The notes under the pieces were generated by a model, which saw nothing but the letters and a program-made list of their open reading frames with translations, searched no databases and was not told where the DNA came from. From a virus, in IMG/VR virus record IMGVR_UViG_3300048913_000063, positions 1-37,156 of that record: 37,156 bases of DNA, one strand, 5' to 3'. This document shows positions 1 through 37,156 of the stretch, in pieces. The first letter of the stretch is position 1, and each line of letters starts with the position of its first letter. A program made the position numbers and the translations under genes.

Positions 1-127
1 TTTGTCTACTGCTGCTAGGTCGTTCTCGATATGTTCGTCTTCAAACAAACCGAGAGGCGATTTAGTTGTATCGCTACCGCTGTTTTGCGTAGCGAAGATA
101 TATGATTCATTGATGCGAAGAGTGCGC
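1..127. repeat. Terminal direct repeat, copy 1 (identical to 37030-37156); overlap of a circularly assembled genome
   Basis: By-eye comparison: the first 127 nt (tttgtctactgctgctagg...gatgcgaagagtgcgc) recur exactly as the last 127 nt. A single ORF reads through the junction. Confidence 0.95.
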
Positions 128-668: not shown

Positions 669-830
669 TTAGAACGGGATCACGCCCGATTCAATGTCTT
701 TCCTCTGCTGTTCCTCCTGTTCTTTAGTAAGTATTGGCTTCCATGTGTTCGGAGACATTGGAGAGCGCTTCTCGCTGAATGTCTGCACTAAACCTCTCTT
801 GAGAGCCTGTTCGTAGGTCATGATCTGCAT
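669..830 (-). CDS. Hypothetical 53-aa protein ending ...DIESGVIPF
   Basis: Below the track size cut-off. ATG 830-828 shares its A with the TGA of the upstream gene (TGATG coupling). Translation: MQIMTYEQALKRGLVQTFSEKRSPMSPNTWKPILTKEQEEQQRKDIESGVIPF. It lies 48 nt upstream of the ATPase start. Confidence 0.55.
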   Translation of the reverse strand: MQIMTYEQALKRGLVQTFSEKRSPMSPNTWKPILTKEQEEQQRKDIESGVIPF

Positions 831-1063
831 CATTTCTCTATCCCGGGGATGTCGCTCGATATGAAGTGAATGCTACTGAAAGTCGGCACTCCTTCTTCGC
901 TAATGAGTTGTTTGCGCAAGCAAGTAGTTTGTTCCTCAGTCCAAGGCTTAAATCCAGGAGCATAAGCAATCGCTGCATCCAGCACCTTAATCCACTGGCT
1001 GCGAGATATGATGATCCCGTTAGCCAGGTCTTTCTTTACTTGTTTCAGTTGATCAAGCGTCAT
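830..1063 (-). CDS. Hypothetical 77-aa early protein
   Basis: Track ORF 830..1165, trimmed to the internal ATG (MTLDQLKQVKKD...). That ATG follows GGAGGC and overlaps the upstream stop (ATGACGCTTGA). Confidence 0.6.
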   Translation of the reverse strand: MTLDQLKQVKKDLANGIIISRSQWIKVLDAAIAYAPGFKPWTEEQTTCLRKQLISEEGVPTFSSIHFISSDIPGIEK

Positions 1064-1289
1064 TGAAGCCTCCAGTGTTTCGTGCCATGTTATTTTGCAT
1101 GGCGTTGTAATAATCCGACATGGCCTGATTGAACTCTTTTTGTGCCTGCCGATAGTTAATATCAAGCATGACCCGCTTTTCAGTCGTCAGCCCAAAAGTG
1201 TTAGCCATACCAAGCGCTTCATATCTTTGACGCGTTTGATCTACAACCTTCTCAAGTTCTTCCAAGCTTTTATCCATTGTTTCCTCCAT
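1053..1289 (-). CDS. Hypothetical 78-aa helical early protein
   Basis: Track ORF. Coiled-coil-like sequence (MEETMDKSLEELEKVVDQTRQRYEAL...). Translationally coupled to the next gene. Confidence 0.6.
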   Translation of the reverse strand: MEETMDKSLEELEKVVDQTRQRYEALGMANTFGLTTEKRVMLDINYRQAQKEFNQAMSDYYNAMQNNMARNTGGFNDA

Positions 1290-1569
1290 AAGTTCCCCAA
1301 GGGTGAATAGCCCGTAGTTTCCTACGTAGTCTTATTCGCCTTTGATCCAGATTCCCAATATTCCAGCAATCCCAATCCAACCTGAGTCCTACAGTGCTCC
1401 CAGTCTCAGTTGTCTTCACCATGTCCGAGAAAGGTTCCGCTGGTCGCTGTAGCTACGCCAGCTCGGCTGTACGGGGTGAAACGCAAGCCTGTGTTTCTGT
1501 GGTTTAGCCCCATACAGGGCTGTCCTAGGTAACGCTTCCTTCCACTCGCGAATGGTGTGGGCCAGAATG

Positions 1570-1707
1570 CAAAAAGCCGTCAAAAGACTGGATTCTGGTG
1601 GGGCAAGATAAGATCGGACGGTGAACAATCTTTATCTACAGAACCCAAGCTTTTGACGGCTTGAATATGCTACATCGTCTGTACTTACTACCTGGCCCCA
1701 CGCCATT
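1570..1707 (-). ncRNA. Candidate ~138-nt phage RNA (sRNA or terminated leader): a ~45-nt 5' segment, an 89-nt three-tier hairpin and a U5 tract
   Basis: Predicted from the promoter at 1743-1715 and these hairpin tiers: 1574-1586/1650-1662 (13 bp, perfect); 1589-1597/1639-1647 (9 bp; one pair is G.U on minus-strand RNA but A.C on plus); 1606-1614/1628-1637 (9 bp, one bulge). The loop is 1615-1627. The U-run corresponds to plus-strand A 1571-1575. No credible ORF on either strand. Confidence 0.5.
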
Positions 1708-1714
1708 GCAAGCG

Positions 1715-1743
1715 ATTCTAAACAACTACTTTCTATGAGTCAA
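1715..1743 (-). promoter_or_regulatory. Sigma70-like promoter TTGACT-N17-TAGAAT
   Basis: On the minus strand: -35 TTGACT (1743-1738), a 17-nt spacer, -10 TAGAAT (1720-1715). It starts 9 nt after the stop of the Ser-rich gene. Confidence 0.55.
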
Positions 1744-1751
1744 TAACAAAT

Positions 1752-2231
1752 TTAGTCGAATGAAGAAGATGACGACGAACTAGAACTATCATAACTGCAG
1801 CTATCTGAACTACTGCTATAGGAGCTACTACTATCGCTGCTGGAACTCCAAGAACTGCTACTGGTGTCCCGCGACGAACAATCATCCGAACTATAAGAAC
1901 TGGAAGACGAACTACTAGACCAGATACTAAGCGGGCTGATTGGGTTCAATGGGCTGAAAGGATTCAGCGGGTTCATCAAGTCCATTCCAGTCTGCTCCTG
2001 GCGTACCTGTCGGTCATAATCCGATTGCTGGCTAGATAGATAGCGGCCACGGATCTGATCGTTTCCGAAGAAAGATTGCGTTTGAGACTTTTTCAATTGC
2101 TCCATGATAGCAATATGCTGCTCATATTCTTTCTGCTGTTGAGCGTTACGCTCTGCCTTCCTTCGCTCAGCTTCCTCACGCTTCTTGCGCTTGATATTGA
2201 ACGGCCAAAAATTGAACATTTCACTCTCCAT
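1752..2231 (-). CDS. Hypothetical 159-aa protein with a basic/helical N-half, PLNPxSPL repeats and an extremely Ser-rich acidic C-terminal tail
   Basis: Track ORF, coupled to the upstream gene by TAATG. About 39 of the last 55 residues are Ser (SSSSSSSSYSSDDCSSRDTSSSSWSSSSDSSSSYSSSSDSCSYDSSSSSSSSSFD). These use a mixture of AGT/AGC/TCN codons. Confidence 0.65.
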   Translation of the reverse strand: MESEMFNFWPFNIKRKKREEAERRKAERNAQQQKEYEQHIAIMEQLKKSQTQSFFGNDQIRGRYLSSQQSDYDRQVRQEQTGMDLMNPLNPFSPLNPISPLSIWSSSSSSSSYSSDDCSSRDTSSSSWSSSSDSSSSYSSSSDSCSYDSSSSSSSSSFD

Positions 2232-2455
2232 TATCGCTGTAAAAAATCAACAAACTCGGCCAAAATAGCCATCAAAGCCGATGCCGCAAACAACAGTCCA
2301 AACACGAATACAGCCACTTCCCCGCCTCCACGGTTAATCTCGTCAGATAACGACTTGCAACCTTGCTCCTGCCAGTCCCCGCACATTTCATGCTCATCTG
2401 CTTCCTGGCGAGGACGGCGAATCTCTGCTAACTGCTGGCGGAATCGTTCGAACAT
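2231..2455 (-). CDS. Hypothetical 74-aa protein with a C-terminal transmembrane anchor
   Basis: Track ORF with RBS AGGAGCC 5 nt upstream. The C-terminus VAVFVFGLLFAASALMAILAEFV is a plausible single TM helix. Confidence 0.6.
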   Translation of the reverse strand: MFERFRQQLAEIRRPRQEADEHEMCGDWQEQGCKSLSDEINRGGGEVAVFVFGLLFAASALMAILAEFVDFLQR

Positions 2456-2475
2456 TTCAGGCTCCTATTATTGAT

Positions 2476-2491
2476 GCGCCCCGAAGGGCGC
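2476..2491 (-). promoter_or_regulatory. GC-rich tetraloop hairpin between two early genes (RNA stabiliser or processing site?)
   Basis: GCGCCC-CGAA-GGGCGC on plus, giving a UUCG loop on the minus-strand RNA. There is no U-tract, so it is not a classical terminator. Confidence 0.4.
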
Positions 2492-2498
2492 GGAGTCG

Positions 2499-2663
2499 TT
2501 ATTCAGAAGGATATGACATAGATGGCAGTTCGCTTTTATTACTATTGCACCAAGCTACGAACTGATCTTTGATGTAGACGGATGGGAAGCGAATCATTTC
2601 ACCATCAAACCAACCGCCAAGTTCTTTAACTTTTGCCCGCAACGCTTTTTCTTTGGCATCCAT
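2499..2663 (-). CDS. Hypothetical 54-aa first gene of the leftward operon
   Basis: Track ORF 2499..2843, trimmed to the ATG downstream of the predicted leftward transcription start sites (MDAKEKALRAKVKELGGWFDG...). It is preceded by AAGGGCGGGAA. An ATG at 2678 is an alternative start. Confidence 0.45.
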   Translation of the reverse strand: MDAKEKALRAKVKELGGWFDGEMIRFPSVYIKDQFVAWCNSNKSELPSMSYPSE

Positions 2664-2714
2664 TTCCCGCCCTTTCATTCCCGCCGCGCCCCATGCGCTG
2701 CATCCATGCATAGA

Positions 2715-2756
2715 ACTATAGCGCACAACAATACGTTCCGCAAGAACTATTTGCAA
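2715..2756 (-). promoter_or_regulatory. Two overlapping leftward sigma70-like promoters
   Basis: Minus strand: TTGCAA (2756-2751)-N17-TATTGT (2733-2728), and TTGCGG (2743-2738)-N17-TATAGT (2720-2715). Confidence 0.5.
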
Positions 2757-2778
2757 CGCCCCGGAAGAACGAAATATG

Positions 2779-2807
2779 TTGCGATCGCGAACAATATGGC
2801 ATATGAT
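2779..2807 (+). promoter_or_regulatory. Rightward early promoter TTGCGA-N17-TATGAT
   Basis: -35 at 2779-2784, a 17-nt spacer containing the palindrome GCGATCGC, -10 at 2802-2807. GGAG lies at 2828-2831 and GTG at 2837. Confidence 0.55.
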
Positions 2808-2836
2808 GAAGCCATCAACAAATAACTGGAGATATT

Positions 2837-3073
2837 GTGACACGAACTAAAGGCCCAAAGAAACCGCATGCTTTGTTAGATGCGCTTCTTTCAGAGAATC
2901 GTCTACGTAACGATTCCCATCTGGCAGACGAAATAGGCTATACCAAAGGCCGTATCTGCGAATATAGAAATGGAACACCAATGAGTGCAGAATTCATCTT
3001 GACGATCATGCGCAAATTTGGATGGTCGCTGAAGAAAATCGATTCATTACTAGCCGAATCAAAGGAGAAATAG
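2837..3073 (+). CDS. Cro/XRE-type helix-turn-helix regulator (78 aa, GTG start)
   Basis: Track ORF. ...NDSHLADEIGYTKGRICEYRNGTPMSAEFILTIMRKFG fits the XRE HTH pattern. It is the first gene of the rightward operon, divergent from the leftward promoters. Confidence 0.65.
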   Translation: MTRTKGPKKPHALLDALLSENRLRNDSHLADEIGYTKGRICEYRNGTPMSAEFILTIMRKFGWSLKKIDSLLAESKEK

Positions 3074-5184: not shown

Positions 5185-5358
5185 ATGACCCCACGCTTTA
5201 TCGTAGTTGGTCCAATCAGTGGCTTCTATCACATAGCCTATAAAATCCCCGGTACTTCCCTTTATAGTTCTTTGCTTCAGTTCTCCAGCCAAGCTTCGGC
5301 AGAAGACTGCGCCAGTGACATGAATGGCACTTCCGATGATATTTCGGAGGAGAAGTAA
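5185..5358 (+). CDS. Hypothetical 57-aa protein
   Basis: Internal ATG of track ORF 5068..5358 after GAAGAAAGG (MTPRFIVVGPISGFYHIAYK...). Its stop overlaps the next start (TAATG). Confidence 0.45.
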   Translation: MTPRFIVVGPISGFYHIAYKIPGTSLYSSLLQFSSQASAEDCASDMNGTSDDISEEK

Positions 5359-6074
5359 TGTCGGGGGATTGGATCAAGTTCGAAGCAAATACTCCTGAGA
5401 AGCCTGAAGTGTTCGCCATCACGGCTTCGATGGGTTGGAATGACCCTGATCTGACGGTGGGAAAGTTGCTGAAAATTTGGCGATGGTTCGATCAGCAGAC
5501 GTTGGACGGTAACGCTCCGAGCGTTACCTTAGCGTTACTAGATTGTATTTCTGGCGTTACCGGATTTGCGAAAGCGATGTGTGATGTTGGATGGCTGAAG
5601 ACCGGCGATAGTGGTTTGATGCTGCCGAATTTCTCCAGACACAACGGAAAGACCGCAAAACAGCGCTGTTTGACTGCAAAACGGGTTGCTAACCACAAAA
5701 GTAACGCTGAAGGTAACGCAGAAACTAACGCTGTCAGCGTTACCGGAGCGTTACCTAGAGAAGAGAAGAGAAGAATAAAGAATAGCGAGCCTCCGGCATC
5801 AAAGTTTGATCCATATGCCGAGCTTATTTCGGCAGGAGTATCAGAGCAGACTGCAACAGACTGGTTGGCAATGCGCAAGACCAAACGTGCAGCCGTTACT
5901 GAGACAGTGCTGAAGATGCATATTGCTGAAGCGAACAAGGCATCGTTGCCGCTTGATAGATGTTTGCGTATCTCCTGTTCTCGCGGATGGGCCGGATTTG
6001 AGGCAGCTTGGCTTAAGCCTGAAGACAGGGAGCCGAATCAGCAAAAGATCCCACGCAGAGAGGTTGTCCTATGA
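5358..6074 (+). CDS. Replication initiation/primosome protein with a DnaT-like C-terminal domain
   Basis: 238 aa. The N-half W.KF.....KPEV..I....G......VG....W.W.D...........GF..AM..VGWL....PNF.RHNGKTAK.R pattern is typical of phage replication proteins. The C-half ...TDWLAMRKTKRAAVTETVLK...RGWAGFEAAWL resembles DnaT-type domains. Confidence 0.55.
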   Translation: MSGDWIKFEANTPEKPEVFAITASMGWNDPDLTVGKLLKIWRWFDQQTLDGNAPSVTLALLDCISGVTGFAKAMCDVGWLKTGDSGLMLPNFSRHNGKTAKQRCLTAKRVANHKSNAEGNAETNAVSVTGALPREEKRRIKNSEPPASKFDPYAELISAGVSEQTATDWLAMRKTKRAAVTETVLKMHIAEANKASLPLDRCLRISCSRGWAGFEAAWLKPEDREPNQQKIPRREVVL

Positions 6075-7780: not shown

Positions 7781-8113
7781 ATGACAAAAGAATACACCGA
7801 AGCATTCGCCCGAAACGAAATCATGCGCTTACTCAAGAATGAGCCTAGCGGATTCACAGACATGATGATGAGCCGCAAGCTAAAGATTGGACTGCCAGCA
7901 TTGCGCCTGGTGCTGGAGAACATGGATAAGGACAAGATTATCCGCAAGGAACCGTTGGGCAAGTGCAAGCGTTATTATCTGCCTACCGAACGGGAACTTG
8001 CTGCAGAACAGGCTGCAAAGCCAGTATTCAAGGTACTCAAGCCACGACTGGAACATCGGGCCGTGATGGATCGGGTAAGGGCTGAACGCTTCGCTATTGC
8101 TTCGATTGGGTGA
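7781..8113 (+). CDS. Winged-helix-like DNA-binding protein (candidate late-gene regulator)
   Basis: 110 aa. ...EIMRLLKNEPSGFTDMMMSRKLKIGLPALRLVLENMDKDKIIRKEPLGKCKRYYL fits a MarR/wHTH-type helix-turn-helix plus wing. Lies near the end of the early operon. Confidence 0.5.
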   Translation: MTKEYTEAFARNEIMRLLKNEPSGFTDMMMSRKLKIGLPALRLVLENMDKDKIIRKEPLGKCKRYYLPTERELAAEQAAKPVFKVLKPRLEHRAVMDRVRAERFAIASIG

Positions 8114-8116
8114 GAT

Positions 8117-8290
8117 ATGATCCAACTAAGCCGAAATCAACGCGAAGGCCGCTATGCTGGCAGATTCCGAGGAAGGGATAAGCGCACCCACTGGGTTCCG
8201 AGAAGCATTGGATTGAGCAAAGCACAATGGAAGCTGCATCTATCGACCACGCAGAAAATCAAGATATTGGTGGAGAAAAATGAGCATTGA
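8117..8290 (+). CDS. Hypothetical very basic 57-aa protein
   Basis: Below the track cut-off. ATG at 8117, TGA at 8288-8290. Translation: MIQLSRNQREGRYAGRFRGRDKRTHWVPRSIGLSKAQWKLHLSTTQKIKILVEKNEH. Confidence 0.45.
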   Translation: MIQLSRNQREGRYAGRFRGRDKRTHWVPRSIGLSKAQWKLHLSTTQKIKILVEKNEH

Positions 8291-8417
8291 TGGAATCGAG
8301 ATTACTTTCATTCTCATCGGACTAGGCGTAATATTGGCAGGAATGATCATTCGTGATCTGCTGATGTTCTCTAGGGAATATGATCGCCTTTTCAATGAGG
8401 GAAAGGATCAGGAATAA
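8280..8417 (+). CDS. Hypothetical 45-aa single-pass membrane protein
   Basis: Below the cut-off. Overlaps the upstream gene by 11 nt. MSIDGIEITFILIGLGVILAGMIIRDLLMFSREYDRLFNEGKDQE contains one TM helix. Confidence 0.45.
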   Translation: MSIDGIEITFILIGLGVILAGMIIRDLLMFSREYDRLFNEGKDQE

Positions 8418-8593
8418 TGAAATACGCCCATGACGAAGCCAAGCGCCAGATAGATGCTCACACTGAGCGCCAAAGGAATGTCATGGGCCAGGATCGATTC
8501 CAGATCACAAAGAGAACGTATATCCCAAGCAACGATCCTACAAAACCACCAATCCTAGAGAGGGTGGATATGGGTAAGTGGGAGAGGTTTTGA
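8417..8593 (+). CDS. Hypothetical 58-aa protein
   Basis: Below the cut-off. TAATG coupling at 8415-8419. MKYAHDEAKRQIDAHTERQRNVMGQDRFQITKRTYIPSNDPTKPPILERVDMGKWERF. Last ORF before the late leader. Confidence 0.45.
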   Translation: MKYAHDEAKRQIDAHTERQRNVMGQDRFQITKRTYIPSNDPTKPPILERVDMGKWERF

Positions 8594-8595
8594 GG

Positions 8596-8601
8596 TATAA
8601 T
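8596..8601 (+). promoter_or_regulatory. Consensus -10 hexamer TATAAT (candidate late promoter)
   Basis: A perfect TATAAT 3 nt after the last early stop codon. The -35 is poor (TGGGTA/GGGTAA at about 8571-8577). Confidence 0.3.
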
Positions 8602-8893
8602 TTACCTGTGATGAATGCGGAGTGCTGATCCGCCACATGGAGTTGCCAGTCGGTCAGCGGCGTAACATGGCTATGAGGGTATACGGCATAGGGGCTGACA
8701 CCTCCCCGTCAATCCATAGCGAGGCAATAAGCCGGAGTTCAGCACCGGCCATCACATAATGCAGCGCAGTTGGATAAAGGCCGATCACCTTGAGTGCCAA
8801 CAAGATTGAGAGCAAGCACGCTATAGATGCCAAGACAGTGTAAAGCTGTCACAGATTTCCTTTGTTTCACCCCTAGCATCACCCTCCAATTTA

Positions 8894-8931
8894 CCCGCTA
8901 TGGACATACGCGCCACTAGCGGGATTTTTTT
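8894..8931 (+). terminator. Intrinsic terminator immediately upstream of the first late gene
   Basis: CCCGCTA (8894-8900), a 16-nt loop, TAGCGGG (8917-8923), A, then T7 (8925-8931). GGAG lies at 8936-8939 and ATG at 8945. Confidence 0.6.
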
Positions 8932-8944
8932 AACCGGAGCTACT

Positions 8945-9094
8945 ATGCCTCTCATTCATTCCAAATCATCCAAGGCATTCAAAGAGAATCTGATTAAAGA
9001 ACTTAGGAGCGGAAAGCCAAAAGATCAAGCCGTGGCGATTGCATATTCAGTAAAACGAGAAGCGCAGCATAAAAACCACAAATCAACAAAATAG
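8945..9094 (+). CDS. Small basic conserved-looking protein (49 aa)
   Basis: Internal ATG of track ORF 8900..9094 after GGAG. Translation: MPLIHSKSSKAFKENLIKELRSGKPKDQAVAIAYSVKREAQHKNHKSTK. Confidence 0.5.
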   Translation: MPLIHSKSSKAFKENLIKELRSGKPKDQAVAIAYSVKREAQHKNHKSTK

Positions 9095-9132
9095 CAGTAG
9101 AATATCTCCCAATATCAATTCAATGGCACGCG

Positions 9133-9140
9133 ATTACTTG
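9133..9140 (+). promoter_or_regulatory. ATTACTTG motif, copy 1 (5 nt upstream of the 9146 ATG)
   Basis: The same octamer occurs at 14896-14903 and 18437-18444, each time in a short intergenic spacer just 5' of a late-gene start. Confidence 0.4.
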
Positions 9141-9145
9141 CGTGA

Positions 9146-9439
9146 ATGAGAATGCCAGCAGCAGCGAAAAATACACATGGATTCAAGCCGGGTAATCCTG
9201 GCAAGCCTAAGGGCGCATTATCCAAAACTACTAAATCCGCTAAAGAGGCAATCGCACTGGCTGCTGAAAAGCTAGGCGGCCCGGAGCGATTAGTAGCATG
9301 GGCACAAGAGGATCCGAGCAATGAGCGTGTATTTTGGGGAACCATCTACCCTAAACTGCTGCCTCTACAAGTCACTGGTGACAAAGATTCGCCTCTGAGC
9401 GTTCAAATTGTTCGCTTTGGAGGACAACCAAAGGAATAA
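9146..9439 (+). CDS. Putative small terminase / DNA-binding protein (DUF5681-like GNPGKPKG motif)
   Basis: 97 aa. ...HGFKPGNPGKPKGALSKTT... resembles the G(N/Q)PxG(R/K)PKG motif of small proteins encoded near phage terminases. The start could instead be the ATG at 9152. Confidence 0.4.
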   Translation: MRMPAAAKNTHGFKPGNPGKPKGALSKTTKSAKEAIALAAEKLGGPERLVAWAQEDPSNERVFWGTIYPKLLPLQVTGDKDSPLSVQIVRFGGQPKE

Positions 9440-36984: not shown

Positions 36985-37156
36985 TTATTCCTTGGTTGGG
37001 TGGTTGATGCCATAGTATTCAACGATGGCTTTGTCTACTGCTGCTAGGTCGTTCTCGATATGTTCGTCTTCAAACAAACCGAGAGGCGATTTAGTTGTAT
37101 CGCTACCGCTGTTTTGCGTAGCGAAGATATATGATTCATTGATGCGAAGAGTGCGC
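36985..37156 (-). CDS. C-terminal end of the Sak4/AAA_24-like ATPase (same gene as 1..621; 37030-37156 duplicates 1-127)
   Basis: Reverse translation gives ...LAAVDKAIVEYYGINHPTKE followed by TAA (36987-36985). It is in frame with the 1..621 segment once the 127-nt overlap is collapsed. Confidence 0.8.
   Translation of the reverse strand, partial: RTLRINESYIFATQNSGSDTTKSPLGLFEDEHIENDLAAVDKAIVEYYGINHPTKE
37030..37156. repeat. Terminal direct repeat, copy 2 (identical to 1-127)
   Basis: See copy 1. Confidence 0.95.

What the first reader, a model, noticed from the sequence alone, without database searches (positions are those of the whole stretch)
1570..1743. Self-contained promoter, ~138-nt RNA and an 89-nt three-tier hairpin with a U-tract inside a 462-bp coding desert
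No credible ORF exists on either strand between the stop at 1752 and the next start at 1289. The minus strand carries a near-consensus promoter, TTGACT-N17-TAGAAT (1743-1715). About 45 nt downstream of the predicted start is a long imperfect hairpin with three tiers:
- a perfect 13-bp base (1574-1586/1650-1662);
- a 9-bp middle tier (1589-1597/1639-1647);
- a 9-bp top tier with one bulge (1606-1614/1628-1637) and a 13-nt loop.

U5 follows the hairpin directly. The only non-Watson-Crick pair in the middle tier is G.U on minus-strand RNA but A.C on plus. That argues for RNA-level selection on the strand the flanking genes use. The hairpin is far larger than an ordinary intrinsic terminator. It could be a phage sRNA or a lambda 6S-like terminated leader gating the recombination genes downstream.
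Basis: partly seen in the sequence, partly recalled or inferred. Interest (0 to 1): 0.7.

Follow-up and report, generated by a model that had tools for sequence, protein, structure and literature searches.

The report
Phage terminated RNA with self-pairing loops
The promoter, long hairpin and U-tract are real and belong to a previously undescribed family of small phage RNAs, in which a loop at the RNA's start always matches a bulge in its own terminator hairpin, with a different 7-letter match in nearly every related phage.

Summary
The minus strand carries TTGACT-17-TAGAAT (1743-1715), an 89-nt three-tier hairpin (1662-1574; MFE z = -4.6) and U5. They lie in a 462-nt stretch with no protein signal.

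The element is unmatched in Rfam, GenBank phages, plasmids and E. coli genomes. I found 15 further copies in uncultured relatives of this 37-kb circular phage. All sit at the same place in the leftward early operon.

All copies share one architecture:
- A sigma-70-like promoter, in four unrelated sequence versions.
- A small hairpin, SL1, beginning about 2-4 nt after the predicted start.
- A 76-103-nt hairpin with a G+C-rich base, followed by U5-U7.

New findings:
- The SL1 loop ("A") is complementary to a bulge or side loop ("B") about two helical turns up the terminator. This holds for 110 of 112 cells across 11 distinct A/B combinations.
- A segment just past the U-tract ("C") pairs with SL1 in read-through RNA.
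- The remaining ~250 nt is also structured RNA. In two relatives it is Rfam Betaproteobacteria-1.

Best reading: a short terminated RNA plus a refolded read-through isoform, gating the downstream recombination genes. This resembles IsrK or P4 CI. Structure and covariation are shown; expression and mechanism are inferred.

The parts
1738..1743 (-). -35 hexamer TTGACT
   Evidence: Promoter scan, 10 of 12 matches with a 17-nt spacer. The promoter core TAGAAAGTAGTTGTTTAGAAT (window 1735-1715) recurs exactly in L001, L014/L040, L018, L021, L032 and L039.
1715..1720 (-). -10 hexamer TAGAAT
   Evidence: In all 16 family members the -10 hexamer ends 11-13 nt before segment A, although there are four unrelated promoter sequences.
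1706..1709 (-). Predicted transcription start (G1709, A1707 or A1706)
   Evidence: Inferred from the usual 6-9 nt distance after the -10 hexamer. Not measured.
1693..1705 (-). SL1, a small hairpin beginning about 2-4 nt after the predicted start: UGGC-GUGGG-GCCA. Segment A (GUGGGGC) is 1701-1695.
   Evidence: fold; inverted repeat I2. Equivalent small hairpins with different stems can be read from the leader sequences of the relatives. A/B table.
1663..1692 (-). Spacer of about 30 nt between SL1 and the long hairpin. Its sequence is poorly conserved; its length is 20-32 nt across the family.
   Evidence: It can pair partly with the U-tract in the read-through fold (helix 2).
1574..1662 (-). 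SL2, the 89-nt three-tier hairpin. Base 1662-1650/1586-1574; middle 1648-1639/1597-1588 with two conserved G.U pairs; top hairpin 1637-1606.
   Evidence: Covariation: helix 3 has 94% of cells paired and 5 pairs with changes on both sides. L020 versus L030 shows two compensatory double changes (sequences).
1598..1605 (-). B: an 8-nt bulge on the 3' side, UGCCCCAC, whose GCCCCAC (1604-1598) is complementary to A
   Evidence: Unpaired in the MFE fold. I2. Cognate versus non-cognate test p = 0.00025. 110 of 112 Watson-Crick cells, against 29-40 when slid.
1566..1575 (-). U-tract U5 (1575-1571) followed by GCAUU; predicted 3' end of the short RNA
   Evidence: Read directly from the sequence. Every family member has a G+C-rich stem base followed by U5-U7 on this strand.
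1542..1566 (-). C arm, UCUGGCCCACACCAUU (1566-1551) plus CGCGAGUGG (1550-1542). It is complementary to SL1 and its flanks and can pair only in read-through or upstream-initiated RNA.
   Evidence: The closing helix appears in the MFE fold of the whole desert. Duplex energy -26.7 kcal/mol; cognate versus non-cognate p = 0.0002. Helix 1: 16 pairs, 5 with compensatory changes.
1290..1541 (-). Second-half structured non-coding domain of about 250 nt, ending at the ribosome-binding site of the next gene
   Evidence: Fold z = -3.5 for the whole desert. Alignment with L047 gives 64 predicted pairs, 11 with compensatory changes. Relatives carry other structured versions, one of them Rfam RF02932.
1752..2231 (-). 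Upstream gene (159 aa, serine-rich tail). Its stop codon marks the 5' edge of the conserved block.
   Evidence: No family hits.
1053..1289 (-). First downstream gene (78 aa; likely real start ATG 1277 behind GGAGG). It is followed by small conserved genes and the Sak4/SSB recombination module.

Best explanation
The feature is a conserved gene for a non-coding RNA in the leftward early operon of a 37-kb phage.

**Shown**
- A sigma-70-type promoter is followed by a small hairpin (SL1) that begins about 2-4 nt after the predicted start. About 20-30 nt further on is a long hairpin (SL2), 76-103 nt across the family. Its G+C-rich base is followed by a U-tract, which is the signature of an intrinsic terminator.
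- The SL1 loop (A; GUGGGGC in the window) is Watson-Crick complementary over 7-8 nt to an unpaired bulge or side loop (B; GCCCCAC). B always sits 21-29 nt above the base of SL2.
- The A/B pair differs between relatives but stays complementary.
- A segment starting a few nt after the U-tract (C) is complementary to SL1 and its flanks.
- About 250 nt of further structured RNA follows, up to the next gene.

**Inferred**
- Most transcripts from this promoter, and unmodified transcripts arriving from the early-left promoter, stop at the U-tract. This yields a compact and stable RNA of about 135-140 nt, in which SL1 kisses the SL2 bulge.
- Transcripts that read through acquire C. C unfolds SL1 and closes a long rod: A:C, then spacer:U-tract, then SL2.
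- The element therefore exists as two isoforms with mutually exclusive pairings of A.
- This switch, possibly set in trans by the accumulated short RNA through the phage-specific A/B address, gates expression or processing of the downstream structured leader and the recombination genes.
- The design is the one known from Gifsy-1 IsrK and, more loosely, from P4 CI and P1 c4.
For: **Reality and significance in the window**
-.

**Family**
- There are 16 sequences: window, L001, L014, L017-L022, L030-L033, L040, L043 and L047.
- Duplicates of these are L006, L012 and L034-L039.
- They were found by DNA patterns and by a flanking 54-aa protein.
- All lie between variable early genes and the ERF/Sak4/RecT-SSB module.
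- The non-coding stretch is 417-534 nt in 11 of the 16 sequences. In the other four distinct types (L014/L040, L031, L032) it is about 170-320 nt and is followed by an HNH gene.

**Terminator end**
- Every member has a G+C-rich stem base followed by U5-U7.

**Promoter**
- Four unrelated promoter sequences occur, each ending 11-13 nt before A.

**A:B pairing**
- There are 11 distinct combinations, and 110 of 112 cells are Watson-Crick paired, against 29-40 when the register is slid.
- Positions 3-7 each show 3-4 pair types.
- Each phage's A matches its own B best (diagonal sum 48 against a permuted mean of 33.8; p = 0.00025).
- B is unpaired in the hairpin MFE fold.

**A:C pairing**
- Cognate duplexes are -16 to -27.5 kcal/mol; permutation p = 0.0002.
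- RNAalifold recovers the closing helix.
- On the 7-sequence alignment 91.5% of cells pair, against 31-52% when slid. Twelve pairs change on both sides (2 of 500 shuffles reach this). The covariation score is 0.315 against 0.215 (0 of 500).

**RNA rather than DNA, and this strand**
- Two G.U pairs in the SL2 middle stem are conserved.
- Wobble pairs occur in A:C.
- The sense hairpin is more stable than the antisense hairpin in 8 of 10 members.

**Modular reassortment that keeps A and B matched**
- L014 and L031 share stems but carry different A/B pairs.
- L020 and L032 share an A/B pair but have different stems and promoters.

**Precedent**
- IsrK works as a short terminated RNA acting on its own read-through isoform. 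The same paper summarises P4 CI (PMC4825925).
Against: - There are no expression data. The host is unknown and no cultured relative exists.
- Promoter use, the 3' end and termination efficiency are all inferred.
- The terminator scan does not score such long hairpins.
- A:B does not overlap the terminator stems. It therefore cannot act as a classical antiterminator, and no alternative antiterminator pairing was seen.
- C is not always matched to the loop part of A. In L047 only the flanks pair, and L019 is weak at -16.2 kcal/mol.
- Four types (L014/L040, L031, L032) lack both C and the second half. The switch to the read-through form is therefore not universal.
- A:B contains no G.U pairs. That fits a kissing helix but is also what a DNA inverted repeat would show.
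- No convincing trans target was found elsewhere in the genome.
- Whether A:B forms within one molecule or between molecules cannot be told from sequence.
Confidence: 0.45

Rival explanations
1. Homo-oligomerising RNA. The diverse A/B addresses would prevent mixed assemblies between co-infecting relatives. The terminated RNA would then be a structural or scaffold RNA rather than a gate.
For: - The loop and bulge are self-complementary, with strict Watson-Crick pairing and many address variants.
- B sits at a constant height of about two helical turns.
- Phage RNAs are known in which covarying loop-loop contacts turned out to be intermolecular (bioRxiv 10.1101/2024.12.08.627333).
- phi29 pRNA is cited from my own knowledge.
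Against: - The 20-32-nt spacer is long enough for an intramolecular contact.
- The phage has an ordinary terminase and portal, so it does not need a pRNA-like packaging RNA.
- The C arm and the read-through rod are not explained by this model.
Confidence: 0.15
2. A processing or retroregulation site. The hairpin is simply the terminator that ends immediate-early leftward transcription. Read-through or antiterminated transcripts form the extended A:C + SL2 rod, which RNase III cleaves. This uncouples or destabilises flanking mRNA, as at lambda sib/tI. The short RNA would have no function of its own.
For: - The closing helix forms only beyond the U-tract and extends the hairpin into a rod of more than 45 bp.
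- The position matches that of tL1 in lambdoid left operons.
- The lambda sib/tI logic is cited from my own knowledge.
Against: - It does not explain a conserved, near-consensus promoter placed 11-13 nt before A in four unrelated versions.
- It does not explain the covarying A:B contact.
- Four types lack C altogether.
Confidence: 0.15
3. A trans-acting sRNA of the moron type aimed at host or phage mRNAs. The SL1 loop or the B bulge would be a seed for targets elsewhere, and the intramolecular complementarity would only mask the seed.
For: - It is a self-contained promoter-to-terminator unit.
- The conserved block is flanked by unrelated sequence in the window versus L001.
- The putative seed lies near the 5' end.
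Against: - A seed for a conserved target should be conserved, yet A/B changes in almost every lineage.
- No strong complementary site exists elsewhere in the 37-kb genome.
- Host targets cannot be tested because the host is unknown.
Confidence: 0.1
4. A DNA-level element. A, B and C would be inverted-repeat binding sites or a cruciform (an operator set, an origin or a recombination site), and the promoter would be unrelated.
For: - A:B is purely Watson-Crick.
- The region is a large imperfect palindrome.
- Bioinformatics alone cannot fully separate ssDNA structures from RNA structures (PMC5737381).
Against: - Conserved G.U pairs in SL2 and wobble pairs in A:C would be A.C mismatches on the other strand or in duplex DNA terms.
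- The U-tract lies on one strand only in all members.
- B always falls in the unpaired bulge of the RNA fold.
- The sense fold is more stable than the antisense fold.
- A replication initiator with its likely origin lies elsewhere, at 5358-6074.
Confidence: 0.04

Closest known systems
IsrK of the Salmonella Gifsy-1 prophage (Rfam IsrK; PMC4825925)
   Same: - It is a prophage sRNA with its own promoter and a Rho-independent terminator.
- A fraction of transcripts read through.
- In the long isoform the sRNA part pairs with downstream sequence.
- The short form can compete for that pairing in trans and so switches on downstream genes.
- The A:C helix here is the formal equivalent of helix b-I in IsrK.
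   Different: - There is no sequence or covariance-model similarity.
- IsrK is about 77 nt and lies after a Q-like gene.
- Here the RNA is about 138 nt, lies in the early-left operon and has a 76-103-nt terminator hairpin.
- It also has an extra covarying loop-bulge contact (A:B) that IsrK is not reported to have.
- The downstream partner here is a ~250-nt structured leader rather than a small ORF.
P4 CI RNA, P1/P7 c4 RNA and N15 CA RNA (Rfam C4 antisense RNA family)
   Same: - Each is a promoter-proximal structured phage RNA.
- Its exposed loop is complementary to short sequences placed upstream and downstream on the same transcript.
- The complementarity differs between heteroimmune relatives.
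- The outcome is control of transcription into downstream genes.
- The P4 summary is in PMC4825925; the P1/P7 and N15 details are from my own knowledge.
   Different: - There is no Rfam C4 match.
- The hub is different. Here the 5' element A is complementary to both B and C, whereas in P4 the central seqB is complementary to seqA and seqC.
- The RNA here ends at an intrinsic terminator rather than being cut out by RNase P.
- B lies inside the terminator hairpin itself.
Lambda tI/sib retroregulation and lambda pR'-tR' 6S leader
   Same: - A terminator hairpin becomes the upper part of a longer duplex only in read-through RNA, as at sib.
- A constitutive promoter is followed at once by a long-stem terminator that gives a short leader RNA, as with the 6S leader.
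- Both comparisons are from my own knowledge.
   Different: - The element is not at the int or late-gene position.
- No Q-type protein or second copy is associated with it.
- The A:B contact and the address diversity have no counterpart in either lambda system.
Betaproteobacteria-1 RNA motif (Rfam RF02932; an orphan motif from the survey in PMC5737381)
   Same: In two relatives (L012/L022 and L043) this motif occupies the second half of the same non-coding stretch, directly after the terminator and C arm (73.4 and 66.6 bits against a gathering score of 49.4).
   Different: - The window's own second half does not match it.
- Neither do the other second-half types.
- The motif does not cover the element in the finding, which is the first half.
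- Its function is unknown.
phi29 pRNA and ROOL/GOLLD phage RNAs
   Same: They are phage-encoded RNAs in which a loop and a bulge or loop are complementary and covary. In those RNAs the contact forms between molecules (pRNA from my own knowledge).
   Different: - There is no sequence or model similarity.
- This RNA is much smaller than ROOL or GOLLD.
- The packaging machinery here is a conventional terminase.
- Oligomerisation has not been tested.

Membership tests
Intrinsic (Rho-independent) terminator | A G+C-rich stem base immediately followed by a U-rich tract on the transcribed strand | tested here: met
   In the window GCCG/CGGC is followed by U5 and GCAUU. All 16 members have a G+C-rich base followed by U5-U7.
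Intrinsic (Rho-independent) terminator | A compact hairpin, typically under about 40 nt with a loop of 3-8 nt | tested here: not met
   The hairpin is 76-103 nt with bulges. The terminator scan therefore does not list it. Termination itself was not measured.
Rfam C4 antisense RNA (P1 c4 / P4 CI) | A match to the family covariance model | tested here: not met
   No match at the gathering score in the window or in 8 loci. No match at E<=10 in window 1200-1850 or at E<=1 in 8 loci.
Rfam C4 antisense RNA (P1 c4 / P4 CI) | A loop of the RNA complementary to sites upstream and downstream on the same transcript | tested here: inconclusive
   A triad of complementary segments exists. Its topology differs, however: the 5' segment is the hub.
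IsrK-type dual-isoform sRNA | A match to the Rfam IsrK model | tested here: not met
   No hit.
IsrK-type dual-isoform sRNA | A short terminated form plus a read-through form in which the sRNA segment pairs with downstream sequence | tested here: inconclusive
   The pairing potential is shown, with covariation. The existence of the two isoforms is not testable without RNA data.
Lambda Q-dependent pR'-tR' leader | Lies directly downstream of a Q-family gene and upstream of the late (lysis and structural) genes | tested here: not met
   The element lies in the leftward early operon, between small ORFs and the recombination genes. No related sequence lies before the late genes.
Bacterial 6S RNA | A match to the Rfam 6S model, and a rod with a two-sided central bubble | tested here: not met
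   No Rfam hit. The read-through rod has only one-sided bulges.
Betaproteobacteria-1 RNA (RF02932) | A match to the family covariance model at or above 49.4 bits | tested here: not met
   The window has no match. The feature is met only by the second halves of L012 (73.4 bits) and L043 (66.6 bits).
Retron msr-msd ncRNA | An adjacent reverse-transcriptase gene downstream of flanking inverted repeats and a long msd hairpin | tested here: not met
   The downstream ORFs are 78, 111 and 54 aa, then Sak4 and SSB. No reverse transcriptase was found among the proteins scanned. Not every ORF in the genome was scanned.

The most novel reading that the evidence does not exclude
The 7-8-nt A/B pair may be a programmable 'address' that works between molecules. 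In that case the short RNA made by one phage would recognise the nascent or read-through RNA (or other copies of itself) only from a phage with the same address.

This could give an RNA-only self/non-self system, such as heteroimmunity or exclusion between related phages. Alternatively it could give address-specific RNA oligomers built around a terminator hairpin. The architecture is different from the C4/CI family. It is physically linked to a set of interchangeable orphan structured RNAs, including Betaproteobacteria-1, and could give those a first functional context.
Probability: 0.25. Interest if true: 0.85.

Novelty: new variant of a known kind. Interest (0 to 1): 0.7.

Why it matters
- It adds an unannotated RNA family, with no Rfam model, from a phage group that has no cultured member.
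- The covariation signal is unusually clean for only 16 sequences: a loop near the 5' end pairs with a bulge inside the RNA's own terminator, using a different 7-mer in nearly every lineage.
- If the address works in trans, this would be a new RNA-based specificity or immunity device in phages.
- If it works in cis, it is a new way of building a compact terminated RNA that refolds on read-through.
- It places the orphan Rfam motif Betaproteobacteria-1 in a defined genetic slot: after this terminator and before phage recombination genes. At least three other structured RNAs can occupy the same slot, which makes their function experimentally approachable.
- The promoter and terminator look like standard sigma-70 and intrinsic signals, so the predictions can probably be tested in E. 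coli or in vitro without the unknown host.

Tried and rejected
**Searches that found nothing**
- Rfam at gathering and permissive thresholds gave nothing relevant for the window, only weak miRNA-like hairpin hits.
- tRNA/tmRNA scan: none.
- BLAST of the region or genome against GenBank phages, PLSDB plasmids and E. coli genomes: no match.
- GTDB genome scans with the flanking protein profile and with the promoter pattern: no match, so the host remains unknown.
- Terminase and NinG comparisons only say 'Proteobacteria-like'.

**Ideas considered and dropped**
- Most hairpin-pattern hits in metagenomes and one in IMG/VR were chance palindromes and were discarded (L002-L005, L007-L011).
- Degraded protein gene or small toxin ORF: no family hits, no hydrophobic peptide, and frames are not conserved.
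- Retron: no reverse transcriptase nearby.
- MITE or repeat: no other copy in the genome.
- Q-type late leader: no second copy.
- Classical antiterminator hairpin competing with the terminator stem: none seen. A:B complementarity stops at the edges of the loop.
- Extra A-like or B-like copies in the second half: only chance-level 5-7-mers.
- Trans targets within the phage genome: nothing convincing.

**A claim I withdrew**
- I first read the outermost part of the window's A:C helix (CGCUUGC/GCGAGUG) as covarying with L001.
- I withdrew this because that part lies upstream of the predicted start.
- In addition, the L001 partner is a motif conserved in all type-1 second halves regardless of the leader.

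**A gap that is not one**
- The ORF-poor stretch at 8113-9146 contains several small plus-strand ORFs and is not a comparable desert.
Full report
**What the window is.** The 37,156-base window has a 127-base direct repeat at its two ends. It is therefore a circularly assembled genome of about 37,029 bp. Gene content is that of a lambdoid-style phage.
- A small HTH regulator sits at 2837-3073 between divergent early operons.
- NinB, NinG, a replication initiator and a helicase lie on the plus strand.
- A leftward operon runs from about 2843 across the contig end into a Sak4-like annealing protein and an SSB-like protein.
- Terminase, portal and structural genes follow on the plus strand.
- Nothing similar exists at the DNA level in GenBank phages, PLSDB plasmids or E. 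coli genomes.
- Two scans of one genome per GTDB species found no relative. The host is unknown.

**Checking the observation.**
- On the minus strand the upstream ORF stops at 1752 and the next ORF starts at 1289 (more likely 1277, behind GGAGG).
- Between them there are only short ORFs with no Pfam or PHROG signal.
- TTGACT-17-TAGAAT at 1743-1715 matches 10 of 12 positions and is the best promoter-like site in the first 5 kb.
The middle tier is 10 bp and contains two G.U pairs. The top tier is 6+5 bp around a 9-nt loop. There is an 8-nt bulge on the 3' side.
- The 151-nt segment folds at -53.9 kcal/mol against -36.6 +/- 3.8 for dinucleotide shuffles (z = -4.6).
- U5 (1575-1571) follows the hairpin. 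Its first two U can also close the stem against AA.
- The terminator scan misses this hairpin only because it requires loops of 3-8 nt.

**Relatives.**
- An exact-pattern scan of the stem arms found one true homologue in IMG/VR (L001) and one in JGI metagenomes (L006). All other hits were chance palindromes.
- The window and L001 share a block of about 215 bp at about 96% identity. It runs from the stop codon of two different upstream genes, through promoter, hairpin and U5, to GCAUUCUGGCCC. The flanks are unrelated.
- I then used the conserved 54-aa protein just downstream (window 669-833) as an anchor, together with two promoter patterns.
- This gave 16 first-half sequences from uncultured phages of about 33-43 kb: window, L001, L014, L017-L022, L030-L033, L040, L043 and L047. 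Further duplicates are L006, L012 and L034-L039.
- At the same place in the leftward operon, 11 of the 16 have a non-coding stretch of 417-534 nt.
- In four types (L014/L040, L031, L032) the stretch is about 170-320 nt and is followed directly by an HNH endonuclease gene.

**Shared architecture.**
- All members have a sigma-70-like promoter, in four unrelated sequence versions:
  - TTGACT-17-TAGAAT;
  - TTGCAG-17-CATAAT or TAAGAT;
  - TTGACA-17-GAAAAT;
  - TTGACC-18-CAAAAT or CATTAT.
- Where scanned, it is the only promoter-like site in the region.
- All have a 76-103-nt hairpin of -36 to -54 kcal/mol, with a G+C-rich base followed by U5-U7 on the same strand.
- The hairpin sequences differ widely, but the stems are maintained. 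On the seven alignable members:
  - 91.5% of cells pair, against 31-52% for slid controls;
  - 12 of 45 pairs change on both sides (2 of 500 shuffles reach this);
  - the covariation score is 0.315 against 0.215 (0 of 500).
- L020 and L030 differ by two compensatory double substitutions in the lower stem (sequences).
- Two G.U pairs in the middle stem are conserved in 6-7 of 7 sequences.
- The sense hairpin is more stable than its reverse complement in 8 of 10 cases.
- Together with the one-sided U-tract and the promoter orientation, this places the structure in RNA of the minus strand.

**The new feature: A pairs with B.**
- In the window, GUGGGGC (1701-1695) lies in the loop of a small hairpin, UGGC-GUGGG-GCCA (SL1, 1705-1693). 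SL1 begins about 2-4 nt after the predicted start.
- Its exact complement, GCCCCAC (1604-1598), is the 3' bulge of the long hairpin.
- Every family member has the same arrangement with a different sequence:
  - GUGGGAG/CUCCCUC (L021, one mismatch);
  - GUCGCAG/CUGCGAC (L033);
  - GUUGCAG/CUGCAAC (L047);
  - GUGGAAA/UUUCCAC (L017, L019);
  - GUGGAAG/CUUCCAC (L031);
  - GUGUGGU/ACCACAC (L040; L014 has one mismatch);
  - GGUGGGC/GCCCACC (L018);
  - GUGACGG(C)/(G)CCGUCAC (L020, L030, L032);
  - CCUGCCA(G)/(C)UGGCAGG (L022, L043).
- A always starts 11-13 nt after the -10 hexamer.
- B is always unpaired in the hairpin's own fold, either as a 7-8-nt bulge or as a side-hairpin loop. It always has 21-29 nt of stem below it.
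- Over 16 sequences, 110 of 112 cells are Watson-Crick paired, against 29-40 when the register is slid by 1-3 nt. Positions 3-7 each show three or four pair types.
- Each phage's A matches its own hairpin better than those of other lineages. The diagonal sum is 48 against a permuted mean of 33.8. The p value of 0.00025 is essentially the minimum attainable with seven lineages.
- The small SL1 stems also differ while staying paired: UGG/CCA, CUGG/CCGG, GUCGG/CUGAC, CAUCUA/UAGAUG, CAUCAG/CUGAUG and UCGGCA/UGCUGA. I read these from the leader sequences.
- Modules reassort, but A and B stay matched. L014 and L031 share the hairpin stems yet differ in both A and B. L020 and L032 share A/B yet differ in lower stem and promoter.
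- Seven base pairs is the length at which the two ends of one strand of an A-form helix come close together. A bulge can therefore form such a helix without breaking the flanking stems. This last point is inference from RNA geometry.

**The second new feature: A pairs with C.**
- Starting a few nucleotides after the U-tract, UCUGGCCCACACCAUU (1566-1551) is complementary to the whole of SL1 and its flanks.
- The MFE fold of the full 462-nt stretch closes this helix around the hairpin.
- Cognate leader/post-terminator duplexes are -16 to -27.5 kcal/mol and beat non-cognate combinations (p = 0.0002).
- RNAalifold recovers the helix, with five pairs that change on both sides and several G.U wobbles.
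- This pairing can exist only in RNA that passes the U-tract, and it excludes both SL1 and A:B.
- It is less strict than A:B. In L047 only the flanks pair, L019 is weak, and the four HNH-linked types lack C altogether.

**The rest of the desert.**
- The roughly 250 nt between C and the next ribosome-binding site is not empty.
- The window's version aligns with L047 and yields 64 predicted pairs, 11 of them with compensatory changes.
- A second sequence type (L001, L006, L017, L019, L021 and partly L020) gives 55 pairs, 22 with compensatory changes, including a long-range closing helix.
- A third type (L012/L022 and L043) matches Rfam RF02932, the orphan Betaproteobacteria-1 motif, at 73.4 and 66.6 bits (gathering score 49.4).
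- The main text of the paper behind that motif does not discuss it, and its supplements were not available.
- The slot after the terminator therefore carries interchangeable structured RNAs of unknown function, or an HNH gene whose Shine-Dalgarno sequence lies inside the terminator stem (L014).

**How it most likely works.**
- *Shown:* the sequence signals of a promoter and an intrinsic terminator; the conserved folds; the two covarying long-range pairings of A; and the position in front of the recombination genes.
- *Inferred:*
  - Transcription from the element's own promoter mostly stops at the U-tract. So does unmodified transcription arriving from the early-left promoter.
  - This releases an RNA of about 135-140 nt. 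Both ends are structured, and SL1 kisses the SL2 bulge.
  - RNA that reads through gains C. C displaces SL1 and A:B and zips a long rod.
  - The two isoforms thus differ in what A is paired to, and in whether C is free.
- This is the logic shown experimentally for Gifsy-1 IsrK. There, the short terminated RNA competes in trans with its own sequence inside the read-through mRNA and switches on downstream genes. It is more loosely the logic of P4 CI (PMC4825925).
- A/B changes faster than the adjacent, nearly invariant middle stem. This suggests that it is a specificity determinant rather than a purely structural contact.
- I put about 0.9 on 'a real, conserved, structured RNA element with a terminator end and an A:B contact'.
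- I put about 0.45 on the two-isoform gate as its function.

**Rivals.**
- A:B could form between molecules and build dimers or rings. Covarying loop contacts in the phage RNAs ROOL and GOLLD proved to be intermolecular.
- The read-through rod could be an RNase III site of the lambda sib type, with the short RNA a by-product. This does not explain the promoter or A:B.
- The RNA could be a trans-acting sRNA against host targets. A variable seed argues against this, and no phage target was found.
- A DNA-level element is disfavoured by the conserved wobble pairs, the strand asymmetry and the position of B in the bulge.

**Novelty and limits.**
- No Rfam family, literature description or annotated record covers the element.
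- It is best filed as a new variant of the known kind 'promoter-proximal terminated phage regulatory RNA with cis/trans complementary sites'.
- All functional statements rest on sequence and comparative evidence from metagenomic contigs.
- The family alignment outside the seven-member subfamily was made by eye and by script, not by a covariance model.
- The A:B register was chosen to maximise pairing, although the permutation and slide controls address this.

Noticed in passing
window 1-127 and 37030-37156: A 127-base exact direct repeat at the two ends of the window. The contig is a circular assembly of about 37,029 bp, and the Sak4-like gene runs across the junction. Several relatives are also about 36-37.4 kb contigs.
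   Followed up: partly
window 1290-1541 (minus strand); L047 1126-1440: The part of the 'desert' downstream of the terminator is itself a structured RNA: 64 predicted pairs, 11 of them compensatory against L047. One predicted helix pairs the distal C arm (CCAUUCGCGAGUGG) with sequence just upstream of the next gene's ribosome-binding site. That helix shows no covariation yet.
   Followed up: partly
L012 4597-4722 (minus); L043 2376-2499 (plus): The orphan Rfam motif Betaproteobacteria-1 (RF02932) occupies the equivalent second-half slot in two relatives (73.4 and 66.6 bits). At least three other sequence-unrelated structured RNAs occupy the same slot in other relatives. L033 and L020 share a GAAAG.CUG.CGGG-like 3' element with the motif.
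   Followed up: partly
L014 ~1131-1302; L031 421-595; L032 2524-2724; L040 839-1010: In four types an HNH endonuclease gene replaces the second half. In L014, L031 and L040 its ATG lies 7-8 nt after the terminator hairpin, and the only Shine-Dalgarno-like sequence (AGGGG) is buried in the stem. This suggests that the hairpin also represses translation of that gene.
   Followed up: no
window 1752-2231 (minus strand): The 159-aa ORF upstream of the element ends in a tail of about 55 residues made almost entirely of serine, with scattered D, Y, C and W. It has no family hits. A homologue with the same N-terminus occurs in L020 (3909-4403).
   Followed up: no
window 2455-2843 and relatives: No recognisable repressor, integrase, Q or N homologue was found among the proteins scanned. 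No relative was found integrated in any GTDB representative genome. The lifestyle of the phage (virulent, phage-plasmid or temperate) and its host are open.
   Followed up: partly
L044 788-1002, L045, L046: A more distant relative with a RecT/YqaJ module lacks the element. It carries what looks like a degraded copy of the MTLQELEQVKKDL gene in the corresponding gap.
   Followed up: no
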